Source of the DNA: Candidatus Hydrogenedentota bacterium | Lineage (GTDB): Bacteria; Hydrogenedentota; Hydrogenedentia; Hydrogenedentales; SLHB01 | DNA length: 12,066 nucleotides | NCBI GenBank assembly: GCA_029974275.1 | Contig: JARKSN010000210.1 | Span: forward strand, 1-12,066 | Reading direction: 5' to 3' | Shown here: piece by piece, positions 1 through 12,066 of the stretch | Position numbering within the stretch: the stretch's first letter is position 1 | How the letters are laid out: every line of letters begins with the position of its first letter | Notes under the pieces: model-generated | Seen by the model: only the letters and a program-made list of their open reading frames with translations | Database searches by the model: none | What the model was told of the DNA's origin: nothing | Made by a program: the position numbers and the translations under genes

Positions 1-2
1 TG

Positions 3-1187
3 TTCCTCCAGTATTTCGCCCCTGGAGCCATCCTGCCCATTCTGAGCCACTACGTGCAGCATTATCTGCATTTCACCCCGTTTCAGGCCGGCGTGATCTT
101 GGCCGCGCCGGCCGTTGCGGCCTTCCTGGCTCCGCCGATCGTCGTGCGCCTCGCCGATCGCAGGATTGCCTCCGAACGCTTTCTCGCGGCATGTCATGCC
201 TTCGCAGCAATCTCCATGCTGTGCTTGGCCCATCAAACCTCGTTCGCCCCATTTTTGGCCGTGTTTCTGCTGTATTCACTCGCCTTCGTCCCCACGATGG
301 CGCTGTCGAACACGGTCGCTTTTCATCACGCGCGCGATCCGCGACGCGATTTCGGCGCCGTGCGCCTTTGGGGCACGGTCGGCTGGGCAACGGCGGGAGG
401 ACTGTTCGGCTACGCATGGCTGCGCTGGGGCGGAGTCGGCCCCGCCGAAACGCGCATGCCGCACGCCTTGGCGGTGTCGGCGGCGGTTTCCTGCCTGATG
501 GCCGTCCACGCCATGACCCTTCCCGCGAAAAAGACCGCCCCGCCGAACAACGACGCAAGCGGCCCGCCGGAGGCGTTATGGCGAAGACCCGGCGTTTTCC
601 CGGTATTGTGCCTCGCATTCATAGGGAGTTATTTGAACGAATACTACGCCTATGGAATCAGCCCCTTCCTCATCCAGCAGGGATTTCCCCCGGAGACCAT
701 CATGCCCGCGATCTCGTTGGGGCAAATCGCCGAAATAGGAGCCATGGCCCTATTGGGCGGCTTGCTGGCGCGGTTCGGCGTCAAACGTTTGTTGGCGGCG
801 GGAATAGCGTTGCAGGCGGCGCGGTTTCTGCTGTTCGCGTGGAGCGAAAACAAGGCGATCCTCTTGCTGGGCATATCGCTGCATGGTCTGTTTTACACGT
901 TTTTCACGACCACGGCGTACATCGTCATGGATCAACGCTGCGCATCGCACGAAAAAACCGGGGCGCAACAGCTCATCAACATCGCCGTGTTCGGCTTCGG
1001 CCGTTTGCTGGGTTCGCTCAGCGCCGGCGCCACTGCCGAACTCCACTTCGATCCCCTTGCCCGAGTCGTCCACTACGCCGGATTCTGGTTGGTTCCAGCC
1101 GCTATTGGCTGTTGCACCACTCTCGCGGTGCTGGTCATGTTTCGCTCCCCTCCTGCCACCCAGCAGGCTGCGGGCGCCCAGGAGTGA
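3..1187 (+). CDS. MFS nucleoside:H+ symporter family transporter (NupG/XapB/YegT-like), 5'-truncated by the window edge
   Basis: The frame of ORF 54..1187 stays open back to nt 3 (FLQYFAPGAILPILSHYV), resembling the 'MFLQYF' first helix of this family, so the true start is upstream. Family-like motifs: LADRRIASERFL, PTMALSNTVAF, DFGAVRLWGTVGW, SLGQIAEI, RFGVKRLL, GISLHG. About 12 hydrophobic segments. Confidence 0.85.
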   Translation, partial: FLQYFAPGAILPILSHYVQHYLHFTPFQAGVILAAPAVAAFLAPPIVVRLADRRIASERFLAACHAFAAISMLCLAHQTSFAPFLAVFLLYSLAFVPTMALSNTVAFHHARDPRRDFGAVRLWGTVGWATAGGLFGYAWLRWGGVGPAETRMPHALAVSAAVSCLMAVHAMTLPAKKTAPPNNDASGPPEALWRRPGVFPVLCLAFIGSYLNEYYAYGISPFLIQQGFPPETIMPAISLGQIAEIGAMALLGGLLARFGVKRLLAAGIALQAARFLLFAWSENKAILLLGISLHGLFYTFFTTTAYIVMDQRCASHEKTGAQQLINIAVFGFGRLLGSLSAGATAELHFDPLARVVHYAGFWLVPAAIGCCTTLAVLVMFRSPPATQQAAGAQE

Positions 1188-1239
1188 GCGGCGCTTTGCC
1201 GATCCCCGCCCAAACGGACGCAACGACGGGGCCGTTTAT

Positions 1240-1269
1240 TTGCATTTCGGGTCATTGCCTCGGTATACG
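1240..1269 (+). promoter_or_regulatory. Possible sigma70 promoter for the sulfatase-like gene
   Basis: TTGCAT (1240-1245), 18-nt spacer, TATACG (1264-1269), in an AT-richer patch of the 1188-1385 intergenic gap. The -10 lacks the final T. Confidence 0.3.
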
Positions 1270-1385
1270 TGCATATAAGCGGCACAGGAAATGAGCAAGA
1301 GCCGTTTGCGCGGCCACCGGGACTTCGCGCTTTTGCGCATGCCCCGCCGACGCGAACCGCATGCTCAACGCCCGGGAGAAGGATC

Positions 1386-3506
1386 ATGAACCAAGCCCCT
1401 TCGCGCCCTGCGCACACGCCCCGCGCTTTGTCGCTGGCGTTCTTCTTGACAACCGGCGGCGCGCTGTTCCTCGGCGGAACCGATGTACTGCTCGCGCTTC
1501 CCGGCAAGCCCGACTTCCTCGCCTCGCCGTCCGTCGCGGCAGCCGTAATCGCCGTCACGGCCGGGGCGAGCGCCCTGGCGCTGCTTGCGGTCTCCGCGGC
1601 GGCCCTCTGTCTAGGCGCGCTCCTGCGACGCCACAAAACGCCGTCCTTGCTTGTCGCGGCCCATTGCCTGGTCATATCGGCGGTGTTGTGGGTTCAAGTC
1701 TTGAACGTCAAGACGGAGGCAGGCCTGCAGGCGCAGTCCACCAAACTGCTGACCGTCCTTGGCGTCTCCTTGTTGTTGGCGTTCATTGCCTGGCGCGTCT
1801 TTCGAGAGCCGGACCGTCCCGAGCGATTCCAACGGCTCCGCACCATCGGCTTGGCGATCGCATGGATCACGTTGGCCTGCGCCGCCGTTCTATGGATCTG
1901 CCTCTACCATTTCCCGTTCGCTTTTATATACGCCATGGCAATGCTTGTTCCCGCCGCAGCGGTTTCCTGCCTTGTCGCCATGGCCGTATCGTGGCTGATG
2001 CGCGGCTTCGCCGGTCCGGCCACTCTCAACGCGGCAGCGGGCCTCTGTCTGGCGATCGCCGCTTACCCCGCGATCGCCGCCAAGGCCGTCTTGCCCCCCC
2101 GGACAGAAACCTCCGCCCGCGCCGATCACTCCGTCCGGCACATCGTCCTGGTCACGGTCGACTCGCTCCGGCGCGATGCGCTGGGGTGTTACGGAGGCGT
2201 TTCGCCCGCCACGCCGCGCCTCGACGCGTTCGCCAAGGAAAACCTGCTGTTCACGAACGCCTACAGCCCCGCGCCATGGACCGAACCCGCGCTGGCCTCG
2301 ATCCTTTCCGGCCTTTCGCCCCTCGTCCACGATTTTCCCGGCGAATCGAAAATCCTGCAACCCGGCGTCGTCACCCTCGCCGAACGCCTGGCCGATCAGG
2401 GCTACGCGACGTGCGGCGTCTGGCACAACCCCATCATTCCCTCCTCCACGCAATTAAGCCAGGGCTTTCAGCGCCGCTATTCTTTTCCGCAATACCAGGA
2501 ATGGGACGATGACAGCGGCACGCTCGGCGCCAAGCTGCTCAAAAAAACCATCTGGAAGGGCCCTTATTCCGTCGAGGGCAACACCAAAGAGCTGACGGAT
2601 ATCGCATGCGCATGGGTGCGGGCGAACAAAACAAACGACTTCTTCCTGTGGCTGCATTACTTCGACCCGCACTGGCCCTTCACGCCGCCCAAACGTTACC
2701 TTCCGGAAAGTCCGCTTCTCGACGAATTCGGCGCCGGGTTCAAATCCTACAACTCCGCCATGAAAGGCTTTGACGTCACAAATTCCCGCAAACGCGAATG
2801 GACGAAACTGCTGTACGACGCCGAAGTCGCATACGTGGACGAGAATTTCGGGCGTTTGATGGATTGCCTCAAAGAACTGGGAATCTATGACAACGCCCTC
2901 GTCATTCTCACCAACGACCACGGAGAAGAATTCTGGGAGCATGGACATTTCGGACACGCCCAGTCGCTGTACAACGAACTCATCGCCGCCCCGCTTGCCC
3001 TCAAGCTTCCGGAAAACGCCTCCCCAAAAACGATCGAGGCATACGTTTCCACGGGCAGCATCACCCCCACGATCCTGGACCTCTTGAAAACGCCGGCAGA
3101 CCCGGCTTCCTTGAGTTATCCCTCGCTGGCGCCGCTATTGTCCGGCGACGGCCCGGTCCCCTTTCACGGAAACGTGACGAGCGCTTCCGTCATCCGCTTC
3201 GAAGAACTCGAGTCGGTGGTCTGGGAAGGGCGTAAATTCATTACGTCGTTGACCACCGGACGGGAATGGATATTCGATCAGAATCGCGACCCCGGCGAAC
3301 TGGCGCCGCTGACCGATCCGGAATCGTCCTTGCGCCAGGAAGGCATGAAGCGAATCGAGGAACACCGGGCGACGTCACGGGAACTCCAAACGCGTTACGG
3401 GATCATTCCCTCGCAGCCCGGCTCCGGACCGAAACGGGACAAACGCCACGACGACGCGCCCAGTCAGGAAAAAAACAAGCAACTGGAGACATTGGGATAT
3501 CTTTGA
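1386..3506 (+). CDS. Membrane-anchored sulfatase-like hydrolase/transferase (alkaline phosphatase superfamily) with an N-terminal multi-TM domain
   Basis: ATG 1386 follows GGAGAAGG, so it is preferred over the ORF-track start at 1269. About 7 hydrophobic segments, then IVLVTVDSLRRD, ATPRLD, AYSPAPWTEPALASILSG, TLAERL..GYAT, WLHYFDPHWPF, YDAEVAYVD, LTNDHGEEF, DPGE and the C-terminal QLETLGYL signature. Confidence 0.9.
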   Translation: MNQAPSRPAHTPRALSLAFFLTTGGALFLGGTDVLLALPGKPDFLASPSVAAAVIAVTAGASALALLAVSAAALCLGALLRRHKTPSLLVAAHCLVISAVLWVQVLNVKTEAGLQAQSTKLLTVLGVSLLLAFIAWRVFREPDRPERFQRLRTIGLAIAWITLACAAVLWICLYHFPFAFIYAMAMLVPAAAVSCLVAMAVSWLMRGFAGPATLNAAAGLCLAIAAYPAIAAKAVLPPRTETSARADHSVRHIVLVTVDSLRRDALGCYGGVSPATPRLDAFAKENLLFTNAYSPAPWTEPALASILSGLSPLVHDFPGESKILQPGVVTLAERLADQGYATCGVWHNPIIPSSTQLSQGFQRRYSFPQYQEWDDDSGTLGAKLLKKTIWKGPYSVEGNTKELTDIACAWVRANKTNDFFLWLHYFDPHWPFTPPKRYLPESPLLDEFGAGFKSYNSAMKGFDVTNSRKREWTKLLYDAEVAYVDENFGRLMDCLKELGIYDNALVILTNDHGEEFWEHGHFGHAQSLYNELIAAPLALKLPENASPKTIEAYVSTGSITPTILDLLKTPADPASLSYPSLAPLLSGDGPVPFHGNVTSASVIRFEELESVVWEGRKFITSLTTGREWIFDQNRDPGELAPLTDPESSLRQEGMKRIEEHRATSRELQTRYGIIPSQPGSGPKRDKRHDDAPSQEKNKQLETLGYL

Positions 3507-3518
3507 GCGGCGTCCTGG

Positions 3519-4055
3519 TTACGCGCCGTCTTTCCCTTGCCGCAGCCGCTCGCCCATGTCGCGAAGTCGACGCAGCGAAGAAGCGTCCAGGCGATCCTCC
3601 AACCGGGCAGGCTCCGCCTTCGCCTGGGCCACGGCCAGGGAATCGCGCGCCGATGACACGGCGCCATCAACCGTCTTCAGAAAATTCTCCGGCCCCATCA
3701 CCAGCGATCCCAAGCCCCGGCACAATTGACGTATGCCCTGGTCGCCCGTGACAACGATAACGTCTCGGCGATTGGGCATGTTGTAGACGAGACGTTCAAT
3801 GAGCGCATCGGCGGTTTGACCGGCTTCGGAATAGGTAATGCGCAGCGAGGGAACCGTCGCGAGATTCGCCTCGGCGACGAACTGCCGCGAACGCCCGTCG
3901 AACACAAGCGCAATGGCGCTCCCGGTCGTGGCGCAAAAGCGAGCCAGCCGCTCGATCAGGGCGTTGCGCGCGAATTCGACGCTTTGATCGATCAACGGGC
4001 GCAACAAACGGCAATGGTGAATGATGTTATAGCCGTCAACCACATATTCAGGCAT
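3519..4055 (-). CDS. yacP: NYN-domain endoribonuclease, YacP/Rae1 family (178 aa)
   Basis: Likely start MPEYVVDGYN at ATG 4055, overlapping the alr stop as TGATG. The ORF-track extension to 4448 lies inside alr. Acidic motifs VDGYN, VFDG, TADALIE and VTGD match the YacP-like NYN pattern. Confidence 0.82.
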   Translation of the reverse strand: MPEYVVDGYNIIHHCRLLRPLIDQSVEFARNALIERLARFCATTGSAIALVFDGRSRQFVAEANLATVPSLRITYSEAGQTADALIERLVYNMPNRRDVIVVTGDQGIRQLCRGLGSLVMGPENFLKTVDGAVSSARDSLAVAQAKAEPARLEDRLDASSLRRLRDMGERLRQGKDGA

Positions 4056-5182
4056 CAGGTTTTGGCTCCGACATACACGCGCTGCGCGCGGCTGCCGATC
4101 CCCGCGAGAATCTCGTACGGAATGGTTTGCGCCAACCGGGCCAGTTCCGCCGCCGTGATCATCTGATCCCCGTCCTGGCCGATCAATGTCGCAACATCGC
4201 CGACCGTCGCCCCCGCGACATCGGTGACATCGACAAGAATCTGGTCCATGCAGACCGATCCGCGGACAGGACACCGGGCGCCGCGTATCAACGCCACGCC
4301 CCGATTGGAAAGACTGTGGAGATATCCGTCTGCGTATCCGACGGGCAACAACGCGGCCTTCATGGCGCGCGGCGCAATGTAGGCGCGCCCATAACCGACG
4401 CTGGCGCCGCGCGGGATCTCTCGAATCTGCGCAACGCGCGTCTCCCAACGCAAGACCGGCCGCACCGGCAAGATCGAAGGCGCAACATCGGTGGGCCAGA
4501 CCCCATAAGTCATGAGGCCGGGCCGGACCATGTCAAAGGAGCTTGCCGGATGGTTGACGATGGCCGCGCTATTGGCCGCATGCGCCGTTTCGTACGGAAC
4601 GCCTTCCTTGTCAAGCTGGTTCAGAAGCTGCTTGAACTGCCGAATTTGCTGAGCCGTGAACAAATCCGCGGAATCATCGGCCACCGGAAAATGCGTCGCC
4701 ACGCCCTCGATATCGACGTGCGAGATCCGCATGATCCGCATCATGTCCTTGACGGCATGATCGAGACCAAAGCCCTGACGCCCCATGCCCGTGTCGATCT
4801 TGCAGTGAACCGGAGCCACCTTATTGGCGCGCCGCGCAAGCTCGCCCACGCGTTCGGCGATCTCCACGCTCGACGCCATCATATGCAAGCCATATTCCAC
4901 GATCGCCGGCAAAGCGTCTTCCAAAGGCTGCACCATCACCAGAATGGGAATCGAAAGCCCCGCCTCGCGCAGTTCCACCGCCTCGTTCACGTCGGCCACG
5001 CCCAGCATCCGCGCCCCCTCGCGGACGGCGCGCTTGGCTATGGGCGCAGCGCCATGCCCATACGCGTTCGCCTTGACAACCGCCATGATCGCGCAACGGG
5101 ATGGAATCATGCCCCGTACGACCGCCAGATTGGCGGCGTAGGCATCAAGATCGACGATAACCCGGCTGGATGGCGCTTTCAT
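4055..5182 (-). CDS. alr: Alanine racemase (PLP-dependent, fold type III)
   Basis: AVVKANAYGHG (PLP Lys), HCKIDTGMGRQG, THFPVAD, HAANSAA, VRPGLMTYG, VGYG (catalytic Tyr), GYADG, CMDQ, TIPYE; 375 aa. Confidence 0.97.
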   Translation of the reverse strand: MKAPSSRVIVDLDAYAANLAVVRGMIPSRCAIMAVVKANAYGHGAAPIAKRAVREGARMLGVADVNEAVELREAGLSIPILVMVQPLEDALPAIVEYGLHMMASSVEIAERVGELARRANKVAPVHCKIDTGMGRQGFGLDHAVKDMMRIMRISHVDIEGVATHFPVADDSADLFTAQQIRQFKQLLNQLDKEGVPYETAHAANSAAIVNHPASSFDMVRPGLMTYGVWPTDVAPSILPVRPVLRWETRVAQIREIPRGASVGYGRAYIAPRAMKAALLPVGYADGYLHSLSNRGVALIRGARCPVRGSVCMDQILVDVTDVAGATVGDVATLIGQDGDQMITAAELARLAQTIPYEILAGIGSRAQRVYVGAKT

Positions 5183-5244
5183 ACCCCCAATCCTCGGTCG
5201 CTGCTGCCCGTCCGGCGGGCGCCCATGCCGCCGTCATCGCGGGG

Positions 5245-5844
5245 CTACCGCGCCTGTGTAAACAAGCCCCAATTGTGACGCGCGAACTGCACCCCCGAAT
5301 ACGACGTGTACACCGCCACGCCCACAATCGCCGCCAGCGACCCGTGCAACACGGCAGAATCGTACGGACCTGCATAGCGCGGCCAATACGCGTGCAGGAT
5401 ATCGGACGCAATCGCCAGAAACAGAAACACAAAAACATACACCATCTGAAGAATGGCCTTGGTCTTGCCGTACCGGTTGGCCCCAATGACCTCCCCGCTG
5501 CTCGCCGCAAGCGACCGGGCGCCCGTGATCAAAAACTCGCGCGCCAAAATCACCACGACCGTCCAGCCGGGTATCCACAACACATCCAGCTCCATGAGCA
5601 TGACGAACGCCGCGGACAACAGCATCTTGTCGGCCACCGGATCAAGGAGCTTGCCAAAACTCGTCACCTCGTTCCGGGAACGAGCGATCTTGCCGTCATA
5701 GTAATCGGTCACCGTCGCCGCCGTGAACACCGCATACGCCAACACAAGAAATATCGTGCGCGGAAACGACATCAGAACGACGAACAGGGGAACCATCAAC
5801 ATCCTGGCGAGCGTCAATCGATTAGCGAGATTCATTTTGCCCAT
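5245..5844 (-). CDS. pgsA: CDP-diacylglycerol--glycerol-3-phosphate 3-phosphatidyltransferase
   Basis: MNLANRLTLAR, TDYYDGKIAR..EVTSFGKLLDPVADK (CDP-alcohol phosphotransferase motif), AREFLITGAR, GKTKAILQ. Alternative start ATG at 5835. Lies in the usual ftsK-rodZ-pgsA context. Confidence 0.95.
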   Translation of the reverse strand: MGKMNLANRLTLARMLMVPLFVVLMSFPRTIFLVLAYAVFTAATVTDYYDGKIARSRNEVTSFGKLLDPVADKMLLSAAFVMLMELDVLWIPGWTVVVILAREFLITGARSLAASSGEVIGANRYGKTKAILQMVYVFVFLFLAIASDILHAYWPRYAGPYDSAVLHGSLAAIVGVAVYTSYSGVQFARHNWGLFTQAR

Positions 5845-5918
5845 TCCACGCGCGTCACCCCCACACCTGCCAAAGCCGCAACCCGCGACCGACCGGGCAC
5901 CCCGTTTCCATCCTCGCG

Positions 5919-6392
5919 TTAACGCAGGGAAGCGGGAACGGGCGGCGGCACCACCATCCCATCGTCGAGGCTTTCCGCCCGGACGCGCGTATCGGAAGGC
6001 TCAGACGTCGGACGGCATACGACCGTATAGGAAAGCCACCCAAATGCAAAAATAGCGCACACGATCGCCCACGTGATCGCCTCGTTCATCCAACGAGGCC
6101 TTCCCGCGGCGCTCGAATGGAGCGAAGCGTCCCGGACAGTCCTTGCGGCTTGCTTCCCCAAAGCGCGATAGTGATCGAGATACGGTTCCGGATCCAATCC
6201 CAAATACAGGCAATACGTGCGCAAAAAGCCCAGTCCATAACACGAGGCGGGCAACGAACGGAAATCGCCCGTCTCGATGGACTCGAGATACGCAGACGGT
6301 ATCCGGAGCTTGTGGGACACCTCGTCCAGGCTCAAGCCCGTGGCTTCCCGGCGGACCCGAAGATCAACTCCGAACAAAGCGGTCTTGCTCAT
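5919..6392 (-). CDS. rodZ: RodZ-like protein (XRE-type HTH + single TM), short form
   Basis: G..LR..RE..GLSLDEVS..LRI...YLESIETGDF..LP...Y..GFLRTY...LGLD is the RodZ N-terminal HTH pattern. One TM (AITWAIVCAIFAFGWLSYTVV). ATGA overlap with the ftsK stop. Confidence 0.8.
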   Translation of the reverse strand: MSKTALFGVDLRVRREATGLSLDEVSHKLRIPSAYLESIETGDFRSLPASCYGLGFLRTYCLYLGLDPEPYLDHYRALGKQAARTVRDASLHSSAAGRPRWMNEAITWAIVCAIFAFGWLSYTVVCRPTSEPSDTRVRAESLDDGMVVPPPVPASLR

Positions 6393-8905
6393 GCGACCTC
6401 GTCCGTGCGCGGCAGATCCACAAGAATCTCGCGGGCCTTGCTGCCGCTGTGCGGCCCAACGATGCCTCGAAGTTCCATCATGTCAATCAGGCGGGCGGCC
6501 CGCGTATACCCCACCCGAAGCCGGCGCTGCACCATCGAAATACTCGCCTGCCCCGTTTCCAGAACGACGCGCACCGCCTCGTCGAGCAATTCGTCGTCCT
6601 CGTCCACCGCCTCGTCGAGAGCGTCCTTCGACTTCCCGAACTTCGCGATTTCGTCGCGGTATTGCGGTGGCGCCTGGGTTTTCAGATACGCGATCAGACC
6701 GTTCATCTCGTCATCGCTGACGAACACCCCCTGAATGCGAGTCGGCTTACTCTGACCAGCAGGAAGGTACAACATGTCCCCCTTGCCGATCAAGCGTTCC
6801 GCACCAATCTCGTCCAGGATGCACCGGGAATCCACCCTCGAAGACACCTGGAACGAAACGCGCGACGGAAAATTCGCCTTGATGACGCCCGTCAATACGT
6901 CCACGGAAGGACGCTGCGTGGCAATGACCAAGTGAATGCCAACCGCACGGGCCAATTGGGCCAACCGCGCAATCGCGTCTTCAACCTCGGCGCGAGCCAA
7001 CATCATCAAGTCCGCCAACTCATCGATCACGCACACGATATACGGGAGCTTGCGAATGGCGTTGATCGAGTCGCCTCCGGTTCCTTCCGCCTCCGTCACC
7101 TCGATCTCGCCGTTCTCGACGCTCTTGTTGTAGACCTCGACGTTGCGCACGCGCAAATGCGCGAACAGACGATACCGCTCTTCCATTTCAATGATGAGCC
7201 AATTCAACGCCGACGCGGCCTTCTTGGGATCGGTGACCACCGGCGTGATCAAATGAGGGATGTCGTTGAAGATGCTGAGTTCGACCATCTTGGGATCGAT
7301 GAGCATCACTTGGAGTTCCTCGGGCGTCTTGGTGCACAGCAGGCTGGCCAGCAAGGTCTTCACGCAGACGGTCTTGCCGGCGCCGGTCGCGCCCGCCACC
7401 AGCAAATGCGGCATGGAAGCCAAATCGGTCACCATGACTTCGCCCGCGATATCCTTTCCAAACGCCAACGGCAGCTTGGCCTTGGTGCGCTGGAACGCGC
7501 GCGACTCGAGAATCTCGCGCATCACCACCGGCTCGCGATCCGTGTTGGGCACTTCAACGCCAACGCGGCCCTTACCCGGAATCGGAGCCTCCACGCGCAC
7601 GCGGTGGGCCTTCAACGCCAGCGCCAAGTCATCGGCAAGCGCCAAAAAACGATTGACCTTGACGCCCGGAGCAGGCTCGATCTCATAGCGCGTAATCGTA
7701 GGACCGCGCGTGATATCGGTGACGCGCGCCTCGATGGCGAACGTGCGCAACGTCTCTTCGAGCAGCTCGCTTGTCTTGTGCAACTGCTCGCTCAGGTCCT
7801 TCGTCTCCATTACGGGAGGCAGATCAAACAAATCCAGCGGCGGACGAACGTACTGCTTCGGATACACATAATCGGCCGGCAACTCTTCGTCGATCGCCCC
7901 CTTGCGGCGAAGCGACGGCGCGCCTTGTTTCTTGGAAACGACGGACACGCGCGCCGGGCCCGTCCGTTTTTCAGCCCCGCCGCCTTCCTGCAACGGCAAT
8001 TCCGGAGAAGACGCTCCCCCGCCCGCCCCCGCAGCCGGCTCCGCCTCGGCCAACGCCTCCACTACCGACAACGGCTCCGCCACGCCATCCTCGGAAACTT
8101 CCTCCGCCGTCGGCCTGGGCAGGCGGATATTGGGCAGGGAACGCGGCAACTCCTCATCCGAAACGCCGCTCGCGGCATCAGGCGCCGTCACGACAGGCGC
8201 CGGATACGCGGCAGCGCCGCCCGTCTCTTCGCCAGGCGACGAGACGCGAGACCTCCGGACGCGCTGAGGCTCGGAACCCGCTGCGGCCACCCCCCGCCGA
8301 TTCCGCCGCGCTTCCCACTGCGCTGTCAAATACCCCGCCAACAGCCCCGTCAGGCCTATCAACAACTGCGCCAAACGGCGCAGCCAATCAAGCATGCGGA
8401 CAAACAGAAAATCCGTCGACAACAACACCCCAACCAAAATGCAGGTCACCGCAAGCACCGTGGACCCAATGATTCCGAACCATCGCACCAGCGGACTGCC
8501 GAAAAACCACCCCACAGCCCCCCCTGCGTGCGGACCCTCTCCACTCGGCATCACGGTCACATGAAACAGCGTCGCCGTGGCGCAACACACAAGAAACAAC
8601 CCAATCAACCTGCTGAAAATGCGATCGAGCTTGCGGTGGGACAAGAGCATGCCCCCCCAAATGCCCGTGATGCAATAAAGGGCATGGGCCCCATGCCCAA
8701 ATAGCAGACAAAGAAACGACGACGCCAACGCGCCGGGACGCCCCAACGCGTTGCGGACGCTGGAGATGTCGTCAATGGGCCGATGCACGTTCCCCTGATA
8801 CTGATCCGTCACCAGCGCCAAAAACAAAAGCACCGTGAAAGCCAGCAACAAGATGCCCGCTATTTCGCGCCGTTGCTCCTCTGGAAGCTTCCCGGTTCCG
8901 CGCAT
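6389..8905 (-). CDS. ftsK: DNA translocase FtsK/SpoIIIE (838 aa)
   Basis: N-terminal TM domain, Pro/Ala/Glu-rich linker, GPTITRYE, PHLLVAGATGAGKT (Walker A), IDPKMVEL, IDELADLM (Walker B), RAVGIHLVIATQRPS, gamma domain SISMVQRRLRVGYTRAARLID. RBS AGGAGAAGAGGGG precedes the ATG. Confidence 0.98.
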   Translation of the reverse strand: MRGTGKLPEEQRREIAGILLLAFTVLLFLALVTDQYQGNVHRPIDDISSVRNALGRPGALASSFLCLLFGHGAHALYCITGIWGGMLLSHRKLDRIFSRLIGLFLVCCATATLFHVTVMPSGEGPHAGGAVGWFFGSPLVRWFGIIGSTVLAVTCILVGVLLSTDFLFVRMLDWLRRLAQLLIGLTGLLAGYLTAQWEARRNRRGVAAAGSEPQRVRRSRVSSPGEETGGAAAYPAPVVTAPDAASGVSDEELPRSLPNIRLPRPTAEEVSEDGVAEPLSVVEALAEAEPAAGAGGGASSPELPLQEGGGAEKRTGPARVSVVSKKQGAPSLRRKGAIDEELPADYVYPKQYVRPPLDLFDLPPVMETKDLSEQLHKTSELLEETLRTFAIEARVTDITRGPTITRYEIEPAPGVKVNRFLALADDLALALKAHRVRVEAPIPGKGRVGVEVPNTDREPVVMREILESRAFQRTKAKLPLAFGKDIAGEVMVTDLASMPHLLVAGATGAGKTVCVKTLLASLLCTKTPEELQVMLIDPKMVELSIFNDIPHLITPVVTDPKKAASALNWLIIEMEERYRLFAHLRVRNVEVYNKSVENGEIEVTEAEGTGGDSINAIRKLPYIVCVIDELADLMMLARAEVEDAIARLAQLARAVGIHLVIATQRPSVDVLTGVIKANFPSRVSFQVSSRVDSRCILDEIGAERLIGKGDMLYLPAGQSKPTRIQGVFVSDDEMNGLIAYLKTQAPPQYRDEIAKFGKSKDALDEAVDEDDELLDEAVRVVLETGQASISMVQRRLRVGYTRAARLIDMMELRGIVGPHSGSKAREILVDLPRTDEVA

Positions 8906-8947
8906 CCCCTCTTCTCCTGCCCGCCTGCATAGAGGCCACCACCCCCG

Positions 8948-8976
8948 ATTCTAGCAGACGAACTCTCGGGTTGCAA
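8948..8976 (-). promoter_or_regulatory. Sigma70-type promoter of the ftsK operon
   Basis: On the - strand: TTGCAA (8976-8971), exactly 17 nt, then TAGAAT (8953-8948) with an extended -10 TGn (TGcTAGAAT). An AT-rich UP-like tract lies upstream. Predicted TSS near 8941. Confidence 0.75.
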
Positions 8977-9020
8977 CAAAATATTGTGGTAGTCTACATT
9001 TTTGACTCTATCCGTAGTAG
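8974..9020. promoter_or_regulatory. Candidate tandem NrdR boxes
   Basis: CAACAAAATATTGTGG (8974-8989) matches acaCwAtATaTwGtgt at 12/16 with all core positions. ACTCTATCCGTAGTAG (9005-9020) matches 10/16 with a degenerate centre. Start-to-start offset is 31 bp. Confidence 0.45.
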
Positions 9021-9168
9021 AGAAATTCTCCAGCCTGCGCCCTCGCAACATCAAGGATACCACAGAATTTATTGTTTTTCATACGGAAAAAACAGGACAA
9101 ATCCCACCCCCTCCAAATCCGCGTGGGCATCTCCACATAACAGGGCCTTGGAACAACGATCCGAAGGC

Positions 9169-9192
9169 GTTTTCGTTGCGAAAACATCGCAA
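9169..9192. repeat. Two overlapping perfect inverted repeats (possible operator)
   Basis: GTTTTCG-TTG-CGAAAAC (9169-9185) and TTGCGA-AAACA-TCGCAA (9176-9192). Confidence 0.5.
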
Positions 9193-9426
9193 ACACTGAA
9201 AAGCTTGATTCCACAAAGGCTTTCTCCGGCCCCAGGACAGCGGGAGCGACAGGCCCCACATCTTGTAGGCCCTGCCCGGCGCATGAAAGCAATGGGATGC
9301 CTCCGCCGCTCCCGTCTTGCACTCGCCGTGACGATTGGGGCATAACGTAGTGGAACGCGGCGACGCCGCGGACGCGAATGCAGGAAGTTTTGCTAATACT
9401 CCATTTATCTAGAATAGGATATATTC

Positions 9427-10053
9427 GTGACCGCGCCCATGACCCAAGGCCTCCGGGCCGCGCACAAACTGATGCACGAAATAGAGAGCGAACCCGATCA
9501 CGCGCTTCAGGTCCGCAAAATCGCGCTGCAATTCTTCGACGCGACCGCGCCGTTGCATGGCATGGGACGGACGGAACGCGGGCTGCTCGAAGCGGCGGCG
9601 ATGCTTCACGATATCGGCCTCGCCGTCGACGTCTCTTCCCACCACAAAAAATCACGGGACCTTATTCTGGAAAATGGTTTGCCGGGATTCACCGAGGACC
9701 AGTTAAAAATGACGGCCTGCATCGCGCGGTACCATCGCAAAGCGCCGCCCCGGCCCGAACATAAGGTCTTCCGACAACTGTCTCCCGACGAACAAACCAC
9801 GGTCACGAAACTTGCCGCGCTGTTGCGCGTGGCCGACGGATTGGACCGCGCCCACTGCGGCGCGACGCAATCCCTCTCGGCGACAAGCGCCGCGGATCGC
9901 CTTGCGCTGTCCGTCGAACAACGGCGTCCGTGCCGCACGGATATCTGGGGCGCGTTGCGAAAACGAGGCTTGTTTGAAGAAACGTTTGGAGTGAAACTGG
10001 ACATCGCTGCAAACAAACCACGAGGCGCATCCAGACATGACGACGTTGCGTAA
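9427..10053 (+). CDS. Stand-alone HD-domain phosphohydrolase resembling the C-terminal region of Ppx/GppA
   Basis: GTG start 7 nt after AGGA (alternative ATG 9439). DHALQV..IALQFFD, LLEAAAMLHDIG, HHKKS..LI...LPGF, IARYHRK and LAALLRVADGLDR match the Ppx/GppA HD domain. No N-terminal ASKHA domain. Confidence 0.85.
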   Translation: MTAPMTQGLRAAHKLMHEIESEPDHALQVRKIALQFFDATAPLHGMGRTERGLLEAAAMLHDIGLAVDVSSHHKKSRDLILENGLPGFTEDQLKMTACIARYHRKAPPRPEHKVFRQLSPDEQTTVTKLAALLRVADGLDRAHCGATQSLSATSAADRLALSVEQRRPCRTDIWGALRKRGLFEETFGVKLDIAANKPRGASRHDDVA

Positions 10054-10441
10054 CGAAACCGAAGGCGCCCTAAAACAGCTTCTCCCGGAGCCGGAACCGG
10101 GCGCATTCGCCGTTGCCTTCGAATTCGCCCCGGAACTGGAAGTGTTCCAGGGACATTTCCCGGACAATCCCATCGTGCCCGGCGTCATGCAGATCGAGGC
10201 CGTGCGATGCGCCGCACAAGCAGCGCTAGGAAAACGGCTCCGCACAATGCGCATCCTCCGCGCCAAGTTCACGGGCGTGCTTCGGCCCGCGCAACCGGTG
10301 CTGGTCCAGGGCTCCCTGACATTCCGCGGGGAACGGGTGATTGTCAGAGCGGAACTTGCCGCGGCAGACCGCGCCATCGCCACGGTGAACCTGGAATTAC
10401 AAGAATGGAACCCCGAAACGAACAGCGGCATGCAACCGTGA
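10037..10441 (+). CDS. Hotdog-fold 3-hydroxyacyl-ACP dehydratase, ApeI/FabZ-like
   Basis: VFQGHFPDNPIVPGVMQIE (catalytic His motif) and AKFTGVLRP. Lacks the N-terminal LPHRYP segment of canonical FabZ, as ApeI-type subunits do. Overlaps the HD gene by 17 nt. Confidence 0.85.
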   Translation: MTTLRNETEGALKQLLPEPEPGAFAVAFEFAPELEVFQGHFPDNPIVPGVMQIEAVRCAAQAALGKRLRTMRILRAKFTGVLRPAQPVLVQGSLTFRGERVIVRAELAAADRAIATVNLELQEWNPETNSGMQP

Positions 10442-11283
10442 TGGATCGAAATGAACCAGCGAATCAGCGGCAACGCGATAACCGTTTCCCCGAGGCGTCG
10501 TACGGCAAGCCCCCAAGGCCCGTCGACCTCCACATCGGACTATGGCCCGAGTGCAATCTCCGTTGCTCCGCCTGCCGCGAAAATGCGCCCTCGAAAAACA
10601 CCGCCCTGAAACTGTACGACTTGCGCCGCGCCATCCGGCAGGCACACGCGATGGGCATACCGCGGATCGTGGCGTATGGAGCGGGCGAACCCCTTCTGCA
10701 CCCGCGCTTCCGGGAAGCGATCTCATTGATTTCCGCTTCCGGGCTCCGAATCGCCCTATGCACGAACGGAACCTTGATCACGGAAACTCTCGCTGCGTTC
10801 CTCTATCACCATGCCATCACGGTCATAGTGCGCCGGGACAGCGCCATCGCCTCGGTTCAGGACGAGTTGGCGGGCATGCCGGGAGCGAGCGCGCTCATGG
10901 AGCGAGGACGGCACGCCCTGTTCAAGGCGGGATACCCCGATCCGGAACACGGCCTGGGAATTCGGATTGCCGCATGTCGCGCCAACCAAGACGAAATGCC
11001 CGATCTGTGGTGCTGGGCGCGGAATCACGGAATCACCCCGTATCTCGAATGCCCGCACCTCACGACGCACCGCTCCCGAACGCGGATGTCCGGCGCGCTA
11101 TCACCTGTGGAAATGCACGCCCTCGCGCAAACATTGCATTCGATGCGTCCGGATGCGAAGGAACCGCTGTATTGGCCGCCCCTTCCCGCCGTGCGCTTTC
11201 TCGCGCATCAAGACGCAACGCTAGATGCGTCGTTCGGCGGCGGCGCGCCCGAAAACCGCCTAACCTGCGACACGCCGTCATGA
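10441..11283 (+). CDS. Radical SAM protein (280 aa) without a recognisable SPASM domain
   Basis: ATG 10441 in TGATG overlap with the upstream stop; the ORF-track start at 10207 lies inside the upstream gene. CNLRCSAC (CxxxCxxC, nt 10552-10575), GAGEPLLHP, CTNGTLIT. Confidence 0.85.
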   Translation: MDRNEPANQRQRDNRFPEASYGKPPRPVDLHIGLWPECNLRCSACRENAPSKNTALKLYDLRRAIRQAHAMGIPRIVAYGAGEPLLHPRFREAISLISASGLRIALCTNGTLITETLAAFLYHHAITVIVRRDSAIASVQDELAGMPGASALMERGRHALFKAGYPDPEHGLGIRIAACRANQDEMPDLWCWARNHGITPYLECPHLTTHRSRTRMSGALSPVEMHALAQTLHSMRPDAKEPLYWPPLPAVRFLAHQDATLDASFGGGAPENRLTCDTPS

Positions 11284-11338
11284 GACCCGAGACAACGCAA
11301 TACGCCATGAGAAAATATTCAGGGAGGTTGTAGCGAAC

Positions 11339-11803
11339 ATGGGAACGCCTGCAGAACAAATACTGTTGCACCGTCCGCCGATGCTGCTGGTGGACGAGTT
11401 GATTGAATGCGCCGGCGACCATGCCGTGGCGCGCGTCTGCTTCGCAAACCGGCCCTACTGCATCGCGGAAGGCTTCGTGTGTGAACCGGCGCTGGCGGAA
11501 GCGATGGCGCAAACCGTAGCAGCCCACTTCGGTTGCGCCGGAACCCCGGCCCCCGGAATGCTCGCCGCCATCGACGGATTCGAGTGCCTCCGGGCCGTCC
11601 GTCCCGAATGGACCCTCGAGATCGCCATCACGATCACGCGACGTCTGCCGCCGTTCTGCGCCGCCACCGGCGCTGTCCGCCATCAAGGCGAAACCATCGC
11701 CGCGGGCTCCATGAAATTCTTCATCGGCGAACTCCCTGCCGAAACACAGCCCGCGCCCAAGAACCCGCTTCCGAAAGCGCCGCCTCAATCGGGCGTCAGT
11801 TGA
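11339..11803 (+). CDS. Hotdog-fold dehydratase, ApeP/FabZ-like
   Basis: ILLHRPPMLLVDEL, LAEAMAQTVAAH.G, GML..I..F. No GHFP catalytic His. RBS GGGAGGT at 11322-11328. Confidence 0.82.
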   Translation: MGTPAEQILLHRPPMLLVDELIECAGDHAVARVCFANRPYCIAEGFVCEPALAEAMAQTVAAHFGCAGTPAPGMLAAIDGFECLRAVRPEWTLEIAITITRRLPPFCAATGAVRHQGETIAAGSMKFFIGELPAETQPAPKNPLPKAPPQSGVS

Positions 11804-12065
11804 GGTATCCAATTGCCTTGAACTGATCGATCTCGTCTTGGCTGGCCTCGCGGCGACACGGCGTCGGAGGAACCTCGGGGTGCTCCTCCTCCCAACTTTC
11901 CAGAAAACTTCGCCATTTCTCGGCCACTTCCGGACGCTGGTCGATTTCGTCCGTCCGCTTTCCATTTTCCTTGATGCCAACGCGCTGAAGCTCGCGCGGG
12001 TTAAGCCCATTGTGGGAATCCCGGTTTTCGAAATACTTCCACGCATCCGAAAAAACGGCGGTCTT
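11796..12065 (-). CDS. C-terminal fragment of a second sulfatase-like hydrolase (runs off the window edge)
   Basis: Manual translation of the - strand from 12065: KTAVFSDAWKYFENRDSHNGLNPRELQRVGIKENGKRTDEIDQRPEVAEKWRSFLESWEEEHPEVPPTPCRREASQDEIDQFKAIGYLN*. WKY, PEVAE and terminal QFKAIGYL parallel the QLETLGYL end of the 1386-3506 protein. Not in the ORF track because no start is in the window. Confidence 0.75.
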   Translation of the reverse strand, partial: KTAVFSDAWKYFENRDSHNGLNPRELQRVGIKENGKRTDEIDQRPEVAEKWRSFLESWEEEHPEVPPTPCRREASQDEIDQFKAIGYLN

Positions 12066-12066
12066 G

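What the first reader, a model, noticed from the sequence alone, without database searches (positions are those of the whole stretch)
9427..11803. HD hydrolase / ApeI-like dehydratase / radical SAM / ApeP-like dehydratase cassette: candidate acyl-chain tailoring module
Seen: four co-directional genes, the first three overlapping (17-nt overlap; TGATG), bounded by a divergent promoter region and a convergent gene, so the cassette is complete in the window. It has no ACP, ketosynthase or ketoreductase. Known: paired hotdog dehydratases (ApeI/ApeP) act on ACP-bound chains in aryl polyene synthesis, and FASII-plus-radical-SAM clusters have been proposed for unusual lipids in anaerobes such as anammox ladderane candidates. 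Inference: this is a satellite module in which the dehydratase pair makes an enoyl-ACP and the radical SAM enzyme modifies it, using ACP/KS encoded elsewhere. I do not recognise this four-gene arrangement as a described pathway, but cannot confirm novelty without a search.
Basis: partly seen in the sequence, partly recalled or inferred. Interest (0 to 1): 0.72.

Follow-up and report, generated by a model that had tools for sequence, protein, structure and literature searches.

The report
Stray dehydratase pair with decaying radical-SAM gene
These genes are a detached piece of a widespread but unstudied lipid/polyene gene cluster: a two-part dehydratase that looks functional, flanking a radical-SAM gene that has lost its iron-sulfur tail and appears to be drifting, all placed behind an unrelated housekeeping gene.

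Summary
In detail: four real, co-directional genes at 9427-11803, with a 17-nt overlap, a 1-nt TGATG overlap and a 55-nt gap. There is no ACP, KS or KR in the window, nor in the 9.2 kb beyond it on a sister-strain contig.

- **HD gene:** it is conserved across the order without the other three genes, so it is not part of the module.
- **The two hotdogs:** they are an ApeI-like/ApeP-like pair. Their best solved matches are 6QSR chains A and B. They are under purifying selection (dN/dS 0.34 and 0.17).
- **A satellite, as proposed:** they are the only such genes in this genome. A KS/CLF-ACP-rSAM/SPASM-thioesterase-desaturase cluster on contig C257 has no dehydratase of its own.
- **The radical SAM:** it is a fast-evolving paralogue (41% identity) of the C257 enzyme. 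Its SPASM domain is deleted, the family's invariant Tyr in CxxxCxYC is lost, and dN/dS is about 1.1. It is more likely a relic or non-catalytic partner than the tailoring enzyme.

This is not a new pathway. It is a rearranged fragment of the orphan "ladderane-type"/aryl-polyene-like cluster class, which this scan has already noted on other DNA. In some relatives the rSAM/SPASM enzyme is fused to the ApeP-like half.

The parts
8906..9426 (.). 521-nt divergent intergenic region between FtsK and the HD gene. It presumably holds the promoter of the four-gene transcription unit.
   Evidence: sequence. GC falls to about 0.56; one sigma-70-like site, on the minus strand only, which is no more than the shuffles give; no Rfam family.
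9427..10053 (+). Stand-alone HD-domain protein of the Ppx/GppA domain III type (208 aa). It is a lineage-conserved gene and not part of the lipid module.
   Evidence: PF21447 4.5e-22, PF01966 1.8e-7; found in 26 of 40 relatives at 38-52% identity; its neighbours in 8 relatives are unrelated genes; dN/dS 0.47.
10037..10441 (+). hot1: ApeI-like/FabZ-like hotdog dehydratase half (134 aa). It carries the catalytic His motif (GHFPDNPIVPGV).
   Evidence: FabA 32.1 bits; best solved match 6qsr_A, E 7.3e-6; 30% identity, E 5e-16, to the ApeI-like gene of the G043 cluster; dN/dS 0.34; a 151-nt RNA-library contig lies at 10074-10224.
10441..11283 (+). Short radical SAM protein (280 aa). The CX3CX2C and GGE-type motifs are kept. 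The SPASM domain is deleted and its first Cys residues are replaced. It evolves fast.
   Evidence: 29 of 37 core and 2 of 11 SPASM conserved columns kept; 41% identical paralogue on C257; dN/dS 1.09; end branch 2.47 against a median of 0.84; residues 242-280 have pLDDT about 30; no SPASM remnant in any frame.
11339..11803 (+). hot2: ApeP-like hotdog half (154 aa). It has the N-terminal HRPPMLLVD motif and the central-helix Glu (AEAMAQ), but no catalytic His motif.
   Evidence: a profile of hot2 and relatives hits 6qsr_B at 3.8e-19, with the next hit, FabZ, at 4.7e-11; 30% identity, E 2e-10, to the C-terminal domain of the rSAM/SPASM fusion P0006; 34% identity, E 8e-23, to the hotdog of L049; dN/dS 0.17.
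11796..12066 (-). 3' end of a convergent sulfatase gene. It is the downstream boundary and is not part of the module.
   Evidence: The full gene on the sister contig, L048:11344-12747 (-), is 467 aa with PF00884 at 2.2e-39.

Best explanation
The last three genes are a relocated fragment of an orphan type-II FAS/PKS-like cluster of the aryl-polyene-like, 'ladderane-type' class.

**Dehydratase.** hot1 (ApeI-like, with the catalytic His) and hot2 (ApeP-like, with the Glu but no His) most likely form a heterodimeric 3-hydroxyacyl-ACP dehydratase with one active site. They would act in trans for the KS/CLF-ACP-rSAM/SPASM-thioesterase-desaturase cluster on contig C257. That cluster encodes no dehydratase. 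A matching ketoreductase lies on C336.

**Radical SAM.** The gene between the two hotdogs descends from the same rSAM/SPASM enzyme as the C257 copy. It has lost the auxiliary-cluster domain and is under relaxed constraint. It is probably a decaying or non-catalytic copy, and the intact C257 paralogue does the radical chemistry.

**HD gene.** It is an unrelated conserved gene whose promoter and translational coupling the trio uses.

**Shown here:** gene content, homologies, loss of the SPASM domain, the selection contrast and the genome inventory. **Inferred:** the heterodimer, action in trans on C257 ACPs, and inactivity of the radical SAM.
For: **hot1 and hot2 are an ApeI/ApeP-type pair**
- hot1's best solved match is 6qsr_A, the ApeI chain.
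- The hot2-family profile hits 6qsr_B (ApeP) at 3.8e-19, ahead of every FabZ.
- His is present only in hot1. Glu is invariant in the hot2 family.
- ApeI/ApeP is described as a heterodimer with a single active site (PMC8041823, passages read).

**They belong to this cluster class**
- hot2's nearest non-sister homologues sit in such clusters: L049 (34% identity, next to rSAM/SPASM, a B12-rSAM and a thioesterase) and G072 (38%, next to a thioesterase).
- hot2 also matches the C-terminal domain of rSAM/SPASM fusion proteins.
- hot1 matches the ApeI-like gene of the complete clusters in G043, G046 and G044.

**The C257 cluster needs a dehydratase from elsewhere**
- C257 encodes KS, ACP, rSAM/SPASM, 4HBT thioesterase, KS, CLF, ACP, KS, CLF and an FAD oxidoreductase. 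It has no DH or KR.
- The genome's only FabA-family hits are the primary LpxC-FabZ-type frame and hot1.
- tblastn finds no second ApeI-like or ApeP-like gene.

**The radical SAM looks degenerate**
- Its SPASM domain is absent, whereas 29 of 32 top homologues carry one.
- It keeps 29 of 37 conserved core columns, the lowest of 24 sequences.
- Y44, invariant in 23 of 23 relatives, is Ala. K131 is Arg.
- It is sister to the C257/L049 enzymes, with a terminal branch about five times longer than theirs.
- dN/dS is 1.09 (16 non-synonymous, 5 synonymous). Ten neighbouring genes give 0.00-0.47. Fisher's test against them pooled gives p = 0.004, or p = 0.013 without the first four codons.

**The hotdogs are under purifying selection:** dN/dS 0.34 and 0.17.
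Against: - The radical SAM keeps all three cluster Cys, the GGE-type motif and most core positions. AlphaFold models its core with confidence.
- Radical SAM enzymes without a SPASM domain, such as viperin, are active and resemble the model.
- The frame is open in two strains despite a 1-nt indel near the start.
- It is translationally coupled to hot1.
- The dN/dS estimate rests on 21 substitutions. It does not differ significantly from hot1 alone, which has 7 non-synonymous and 7 synonymous changes.
- No experiment or co-occurrence statistic links C325 to C257. The genome has other ACP loci, on C84, C99 and C323.
- hot1 scores below Pfam's ApeI-like cut-off, and hot2 gets no Pfam hit in my scans.
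Confidence: 0.6

Rival explanations
1. One reading: the trio is a working tailoring module. The dehydratase pair makes an enoyl-ACP, and the SPASM-less radical SAM is an active enzyme that modifies it.
For: CX3CX2C, the GGE-type motif and 29 of 37 conserved core positions are kept. The core is modelled with confidence. Its structural neighbours include active enzymes without SPASM domains. The ORF is intact in two strains. It shares a TGATG junction with hot1. Relatives of this radical SAM are fused to the ApeP-like half, so the family does work beside the dehydratase.
Against: The SPASM domain kept by 29 of 32 top homologues is lost. The family-invariant Tyr of CxxxCxYC and the near-invariant Lys131 are lost. 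dN/dS is 1.09. The terminal branch is 2.47 against 0.45 and 0.57 for its sisters. An intact paralogue exists on C257. The C-terminal 39 residues are modelled as disordered.
Confidence: 0.2
2. hot1 and hot2 do not serve the C257 cluster. They serve another ACP system of this genome: the housekeeping FAS II, or the other ACP-dependent operon noted earlier in this genome.
For: The genome has ACP hits on C323, C84 and C99 besides C257. The trio sits among housekeeping genes (FtsK, pgsA, alr). There is no direct link to C257.
Against: The homologues of hot1 and hot2 are found inside C257-type or APE-like clusters in every other locus examined: L049, G072, G043, G044 and G046. The radical SAM between them is the closest relative of the C257 radical SAM. 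The primary FabZ is present on C231.
Confidence: 0.12
3. The whole trio is a decaying remnant with no function.
For: No orthologues in 40 relatives. The gene order is unique to this lineage. The radical SAM looks relaxed.
Against: hot1 and hot2 have dN/dS of 0.34 and 0.17, and the catalytic His and Glu are intact. Both are the genome's only copies of a function that the C257 cluster lacks. An RNA-library contig covers part of hot1. That run was assembled contigs, so DNA carry-over is not excluded.
Confidence: 0.08

Closest known systems
ApeI:ApeP heterodimeric 3-hydroxyacyl-ACP dehydratase of aryl-polyene biosynthesis (Xenorhabdus doucetiae, PDB 6QSR; also in the E. coli and A. baumannii APE clusters)
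   Same: Two unlike hotdog halves. hot1's best solved match is 6qsr_A, and the hot2-family profile's best match is 6qsr_B. The His motif is present in only one half, which fits a single active site (PMC8041823, passages).
   Different: The genes are not inside an APE cluster. No ApeH, ApeO/C, ApeQ or LolA/MMPL gene is at the locus. Identity to the solved chains is low. A radical SAM gene lies between the two halves. The product is unknown and need not be an aryl polyene.
Uncharacterised rSAM/SPASM::ApeP-like fusion proteins of orphan APE-like ('ladderane-type') clusters. Examples are P0006, P0011 and the 493-aa protein of G043 (L047:12131-13612). This scan noted them earlier on other DNA.
   Same: The window's radical SAM (27-38% identity) and hot2 (25-30%) match the two ends of these fusions, in the same order.
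   Different: Here the two parts are separate genes. The SPASM domain between them is deleted. The radical SAM is sister to the unfused C257/L049 type, not to the fused clade. The ApeI-like gene lies directly upstream instead of kilobases away.
Anammox 'Cluster I' (kustE3603-3608: amxACP, amxFabZ, amxFabF2/FabFmut, phytoene-dehydrogenase homologue, B12 radical SAM), proposed for ladderane synthesis
   Same: The logic is FAS II-like enzymes plus radical SAM enzymes plus a PDH-like desaturase. In this genome the C257, C336 and C99 loci supply such parts (bioRxiv 10.64898/2026.05.19.726425 and PMC13459092, passages).
   Different: The dehydratase type differs: an ApeI/ApeP pair, not amxFabZ. The radical SAM is of the SPASM type, not the B12 type. 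The organism is a Hydrogenedentota bacterium from wastewater, not an anammox planctomycete. Ladderane-type clusters outside anammox bacteria have no known product (PMC9902471, passages).
A. baumannii ApeH::ApeI fusion
   Same: It is a precedent for tethering a dehydratase half to another pathway enzyme (PMC8041823, passages).
   Different: The partner there is an acyl-ACP synthetase, not a radical SAM. In the window nothing is fused.

Membership tests
ApeI/ApeP heterodimeric dehydratase | Two different hotdog-fold subunits, related to ApeI and to ApeP respectively | tested here: met
   hot1's top solved match is 6qsr_A at 7.3e-6. The hot2-family profile's top match is 6qsr_B at 3.8e-19, against 4.7e-11 for the best FabZ.
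ApeI/ApeP heterodimeric dehydratase | Single active site: the catalytic His is in one subunit only, and the acidic residue is on the partner's central helix | tested here: met
   hot1 has GHFPDNPIVPGV. hot2 has no His motif but has an invariant Glu54 in AEAMAQ. The residue roles are recalled from FabZ biochemistry. 'Single active site' comes from PMC8041823 passages.
ApeI/ApeP heterodimeric dehydratase | The two subunits bind each other | not testable with these tools
   Complex prediction was never accepted (queue full, then unavailable, up).
ApeI/ApeP heterodimeric dehydratase | Curated Pfam thresholds for ApeI-like (PF22818) and ApeP-like (PF22817) | tested here: inconclusive
   hot1 scores 23.9 bits on PF22818, below the cut-off of 28.5, but passes FabA (32.1 against 23). 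hot2 and P0152 get no hit to PF22817.2. The protein database's precomputed annotation lists PF22817.3 for P0152, and PF22818.3 for hot1. A genome scan with PF22817 rang nowhere, not even in the control genomes, so it is uninformative.
Aryl-polyene (APE) biosynthetic gene cluster | Dehydratase genes embedded with KS/CLF, KR, ACPs, an acyl-ACP synthetase and LolA/MMPL export genes | tested here: not met
   None of these is in the window or within 9.2 kb downstream on the sister contig. Such genes lie on other contigs: C257, C336, C25 and C90.
Radical SAM superfamily | CX3CX2C cluster motif and a GGE-type SAM motif in a partial TIM barrel | tested here: met
   C38, C42, C45 and G82-E83-P84 are kept. 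PF04055 scores 44.2 bits. The model has six beta/alpha units and matches BlsE, viperin and SkfB at TM about 0.6. The aromatic residue before the third Cys is Ala.
[quoted passage not shown]
   No PF13186 hit. It keeps 2 of 11 conserved SPASM columns. C253 is Phe, C271 is Glu and the rest is deleted. No remnant is found in other frames.
Anammox-type 'ladderane' cluster | ACP, FabZ variant, FabF pair, PDH homologue and B12 radical SAM together; ladderane lipids as the product | tested here: not met
   The locus holds none of ACP, KS, PDH or B12-rSAM. The product cannot be tested here.
Ppx/GppA domain III-type HD domain | Pfam PF21447 above its cut-off | tested here: met
   79.2 bits against a cut-off of 27.3. 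The protein is the HD domain alone. It matches residues 319-461 of GppA and falls far below the equivalog cut-offs.

The most novel reading that the evidence does not exclude
After the cluster's rSAM/SPASM gene was duplicated, the copy kept between the two dehydratase halves shed its auxiliary-cluster domain and took on a new role. It could be a non-catalytic, SAM- or cluster-binding adaptor that docks on the ApeI/ApeP-type dehydratase. Or it could be a minimal radical enzyme that acts on the enoyl-ACP without auxiliary clusters. Either way it would be a natural 'SPASM-less' derivative showing what the auxiliary clusters are needed for in this orphan lipid pathway.
Probability: 0.15. Interest if true: 0.6.

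Novelty: new variant of a known kind. Interest (0 to 1): 0.35.

Why it matters
Ladderane-type and aryl-polyene-like clusters with radical SAM enzymes are predicted in many anaerobic phyla, but no product or radical SAM reaction is known for them (PMC9902471 and PMC13459092, passages).

This locus adds one useful point. In one genome the pathway is spread over several loci. The dehydratase pair is kept under selection, while a duplicated radical SAM that has lost its SPASM domain appears to drift.

That supports two ideas. The dehydratase halves and the radical SAM work side by side in this cluster class. The SPASM domain is probably needed for the enzyme's function.

It is also a warning for genome mining. 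A hit to 'radical SAM next to dehydratases' can be a relic, and a cluster that lacks a dehydratase may be completed from elsewhere in the genome.

Tried and rejected
**Complex prediction.** A complex-prediction job for hot1 + hot2 + radical SAM was never accepted. No binding evidence exists either way.

**Searches that gave nothing specific**
- Word-based homologue searches found almost nothing beyond the sister strain: the radical SAM gave 2 proteins, hot2 gave 3 and hot1 gave 1.
- The scan's own findings hold no look-alike of the radical SAM.
- The genome scan with PF22817 rang nowhere, controls included, so it was set aside.
- NCBIfam gave no family above its cut-off for the radical SAM.
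- The ESM Atlas returned only generic radical SAM clusters.
- Foldseek returned only generic radical SAM cores.
- Rfam and terminator scans found nothing. The one promoter-like site is no more than the shuffles give.
- Direct BLASTP of hot1 or hot2 against the Verrucomicrobiota fusion (L016), and of hot1 against hot2, found nothing. Profiles were needed.

**RNA.** The only RNA run (X20) gave two short contigs, over the HD 3' end and hot1. Nothing covers the radical SAM or hot2, which shows nothing about them.

**Readings rejected**
- HD as an ApeG-like pathway phosphatase: it is conserved without the trio.
- An assembly artefact: the sister contig and run X4 span the whole stretch.
- Foreign composition: codon-position GC matches the neighbouring genes.

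**Literature.** Searches for a described rSAM/SPASM enzyme in KS/ACP/hotdog or LolA clusters found none. I saw listings only, apart from the passages cited. Subscription journals are not covered.
Full report
**What is there.** The window is a whole 12,066-nt contig (G000:C325).
- HD: 9427-10053.
- hot1: 10037-10441, with a 17-nt overlap on HD.
- Radical SAM: 10441-11283. Its ATG shares one base with hot1's TGA.
- hot2: 11339-11803, after a 55-nt gap with a GGGAGG ribosome-binding site.

Upstream is a 521-nt gap to a divergent FtsK gene. Downstream, a convergent ORF overlaps hot2 by 8 nt. All four ORFs have codon-position GC like their neighbours. Pfam and NCBIfam give Ppx/GppA domain III/HD for the first, FabA/ApeI-like for hot1, Radical_SAM without SPASM for the third, and only a weak FabZ signal for hot2. 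The rest of the window is housekeeping or degradative: a sulfatase, a NYN domain protein, alanine racemase, a CDP-alcohol phosphatidyltransferase, an HTH_25 protein and FtsK.

**Completeness.** A metagenome contig from a sister strain (L048) aligns with window 463-12066 at 97.9% identity. It runs 9.2 kb further and holds the same four genes. After them come a 467-aa sulfatase (the convergent gene), a hybrid histidine kinase, a DUF4432 protein and flagellar genes. So there is no ACP, KS or KR nearby, and the cassette is complete. Run X4 also holds the whole stretch in one contig. The stretch was found in wastewater, activated-sludge and digester runs. A cluster member is named 'Candidatus Hydrogenedentes bacterium'. 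That agrees with this scan's earlier notes on the genome.

**The HD gene is not part of the module.** Homologues at 38-52% identity were found in 26 of 40 related genomes. hot1, the radical SAM and hot2 have no orthologue in those 40.
- Radical SAM: best match 31% identity, E 1.7e-13.
- hot1: 10 weak matches, all at E of 9e-5 or worse, most in about 450-aa frames.
- hot2: 3 weak matches.

In 8 relatives' loci, about 8 kb to either side of the HD gene, no FtsK, hot1, radical SAM or hot2 was found. The genes beside HD there are a GH2 glycosidase, a C92 amidase, thymidylate kinase, a CHAD protein and an aminotransferase.

**The two hotdogs are an ApeI/ApeP-type pair.**
- hot1's best solved-structure match is 6qsr_A, the ApeI chain (7.3e-6). 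It is 30% identical (E 5e-16) to the ApeI-like gene of a complete cluster in G043.
- hot2 alone matches nothing solved. A profile of hot2 and six relatives hits 6qsr_B (ApeP) at 3.8e-19, well ahead of every FabZ.
- hot1 carries the GHFP...PGV His motif. hot2 lacks it but has the N-terminal HRPPMLLVD motif and an invariant Glu in AEAMAQ.

**Where the trio comes from.** The full-database HMMER search shows no protein above 38% identity to the radical SAM apart from its own cluster.
- Of 32 top hits scanned, 29 carry a SPASM domain.
- Three carry a Pfam-detectable hotdog domain at the C-terminus: P0006 and P0011 (ApeP-like) and P0026 (FabA/ApeI-like).
- One (P0018) is fused to LolA.
- Further proteins of about 490-500 aa align over the same C-terminal domain.
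- hot2 aligns over its whole fold with the C-terminal domain of P0006 (30% identity, E 2e-10).

So 'radical SAM then hot2' in the window is the unfused counterpart of these fusions. This scan had already noted such fusions on other DNA.

Complete clusters in the same order show the class.
- G043: AMP-ligase, HTH, KR, FAD oxidoreductase, KS, ACP, acyltransferase, rSAM/SPASM::hotdog, LolA, MMPL, DUF3261, ApeI-like, thioesterase, KS.
- G046 and G044: the same, with a stand-alone ApeP-like gene, B12 radical SAMs and no rSAM/SPASM gene.
- A short metagenome contig (L049): KS, ACP, LpxL-like acyltransferase, rSAM/SPASM, B12-rSAM, a hot2 homologue (34% identity, E 8e-23) and a thioesterase.
- G072: a hot2 homologue next to the thioesterase.

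The order ApeI-like, radical SAM, ApeP-like occurs in none of the seven other loci examined (L016, L047, L049, L050, L064, L065, L066). Strong ApeP-like matches occur in only 5 of 135 genomes of the phylum. A radical SAM match at E of 1e-20 or better occurs in only 2 of 135.

**A satellite of a dispersed pathway.** The same genome holds a 41% identical rSAM/SPASM paralogue on C257. Its cluster starts next to a tRNA-Asp gene and encodes KS, ACP, rSAM/SPASM, 4HBT thioesterase, KS, CLF, ACP, KS, CLF and a phytoene-desaturase-like FAD oxidoreductase. It has no dehydratase and no ketoreductase.

The genome is estimated 100% complete, in 342 contigs. Its only FabA-family hits are the primary FabZ-type frame on C231 and hot1. 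tblastn with hot1, hot2 and their cluster homologues finds only the C325 genes.

Other pieces lie elsewhere:
- C336, at the contig start: B12-rSAM, KR (50% identical to G043's), LpxL-like acyltransferase, KS, CLF and a deacetylase.
- C25, at the contig end: AMP-ligase (57% identical to G043's) and a GT2 glycosyltransferase.
- C90: an MMPL fusion protein.

It is not proven.

**The radical SAM looks degenerate.**
- In an alignment with 23 relatives it keeps C38, C42, C45 and GEP.
- It keeps only 29 of 37 conserved core columns, the lowest of all 24. The others range from 30 of 38 to 37 of 37.
- It keeps 2 of 11 conserved SPASM columns.
- The Tyr before the third Cys, present in 23 of 23 relatives, is Ala. 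Lys131, present in 22 of 23, is Arg.
- The first SPASM cysteines are Phe and Glu, and everything after them is deleted. No remnant remains in any frame.
- AlphaFold models residues of about 30-240 with confidence, and 242-280 at a pLDDT of about 30.
- In a maximum-likelihood tree it groups with the C257 and L049 enzymes (support 87/81). Its end branch is 2.47, against 0.45 and 0.57 for them and a median of 0.84.

Against the sister strain, dN/dS by gene is as follows:

| Gene | dN/dS |
|---|---|
| Radical SAM | 1.09 (16 non-synonymous, 5 synonymous) |
| HD | 0.47 |
| hot1 | 0.34 |
| hot2 | 0.17 |
| Seven other window genes | 0.00-0.32 |

Fisher's test against all ten other genes pooled gives p = 0.004, or p = 0.013 when the first four codons are left out. 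A 1-nt insertion in the sister strain at codon 5 moves the start codon.

Several cautions apply. The counts are small. hot1 alone does not differ significantly from the radical SAM. The frame is open in both strains. Active radical SAM enzymes without SPASM domains exist.

**Expression.** One metatranscriptome run holds two short contigs, identical to the window, at 9864-10041 and 10074-10224. This is a weak hint that HD and hot1 are transcribed. It says nothing about the radical SAM or hot2.

**Comparison with what is known.** The dehydratase pair works like ApeI/ApeP. The cluster class resembles both aryl-polyene clusters (LolA, MMPL, DUF3261, AMP-ligase, KS/CLF) and the anammox 'Cluster I' logic (FAS II-like enzymes, a PDH homologue and radical SAM enzymes; bioRxiv 10.64898/2026.05.19.726425, passages).

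[quoted passage not shown] Ladderane-type clusters in non-anammox phyla have no known product (PMC9902471, passages). My searches found no paper on an rSAM/SPASM enzyme in such KS/ACP/hotdog clusters. Those searches cover open-access papers and bioRxiv only.

**Verdict.** The locus is a lineage-specific, rearranged fragment of a known but uncharacterised cluster class. It holds a probably functional ApeI/ApeP-type dehydratase pair and a probably decaying SPASM-less radical SAM, placed behind an unrelated HD gene. It is of moderate-to-low interest in itself. It is useful as a natural experiment on the radical SAM of this class, and as a caution for cluster mining.

Noticed in passing
G000:C257:10128-19875 (L003): A cluster of KS, ACP, rSAM/SPASM, 4HBT thioesterase, KS, CLF, ACP, KS, CLF and a phytoene-desaturase-like FAD oxidoreductase starts right after a tRNA-Asp gene (10128-10204, -). 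It has no dehydratase or ketoreductase. It may be an island inserted at the tRNA gene.
   Followed up: partly
G000:C336:1-6365 (L067): The contig begins inside a B12-binding radical SAM gene. A ketoreductase, an LpxL-like acyltransferase, KS, CLF and a polysaccharide deacetylase follow. This is another piece of the same cluster class, cut by the assembly.
   Followed up: partly
G000:C90:89-3412 (L069): A 1107-aa ORF combines MMPL, acyltransferase and methyltransferase domains. It could be an export and tailoring fusion of the same pathway. An AMP-ligase and a GT2/DUF2062 gene lie at the end of contig C25.
   Followed up: no
G000:C99:10847-12564: A B12-binding radical SAM gene (32% identical to the one in L049) lies next to a weak ACP-like ORF and ABC-type genes. 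Its relation to the other pieces was not examined.
   Followed up: no
window 10452-10453: The sister strain (L048, run X4) has a 1-nt insertion in codon 5 of the radical SAM. The insertion itself creates a new in-frame ATG, so the product starts 10 nt after hot1's stop (277 aa) instead of overlapping it.
   Followed up: yes
window 9693-9698: A contig of run X5 shows a +1 insertion and a -1 deletion five bases apart inside the HD gene. This compensated frameshift in a third strain would change two codons.
   Followed up: no
L032, L033, L035 (relatives G009, G005, G011): In three relatives the HD gene follows directly on a GH2 glycosidase gene of about 1070 aa and precedes a C92 (YaeF/YiiX) amidase. 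In G014 a CHAD-domain gene lies next to it, which recalls a link to polyphosphate.
   Followed up: partly
window 2-1294 (+): A 430-aa ORF that is open at the contig start has no Pfam hit at E of 0.001 or better.
   Followed up: no
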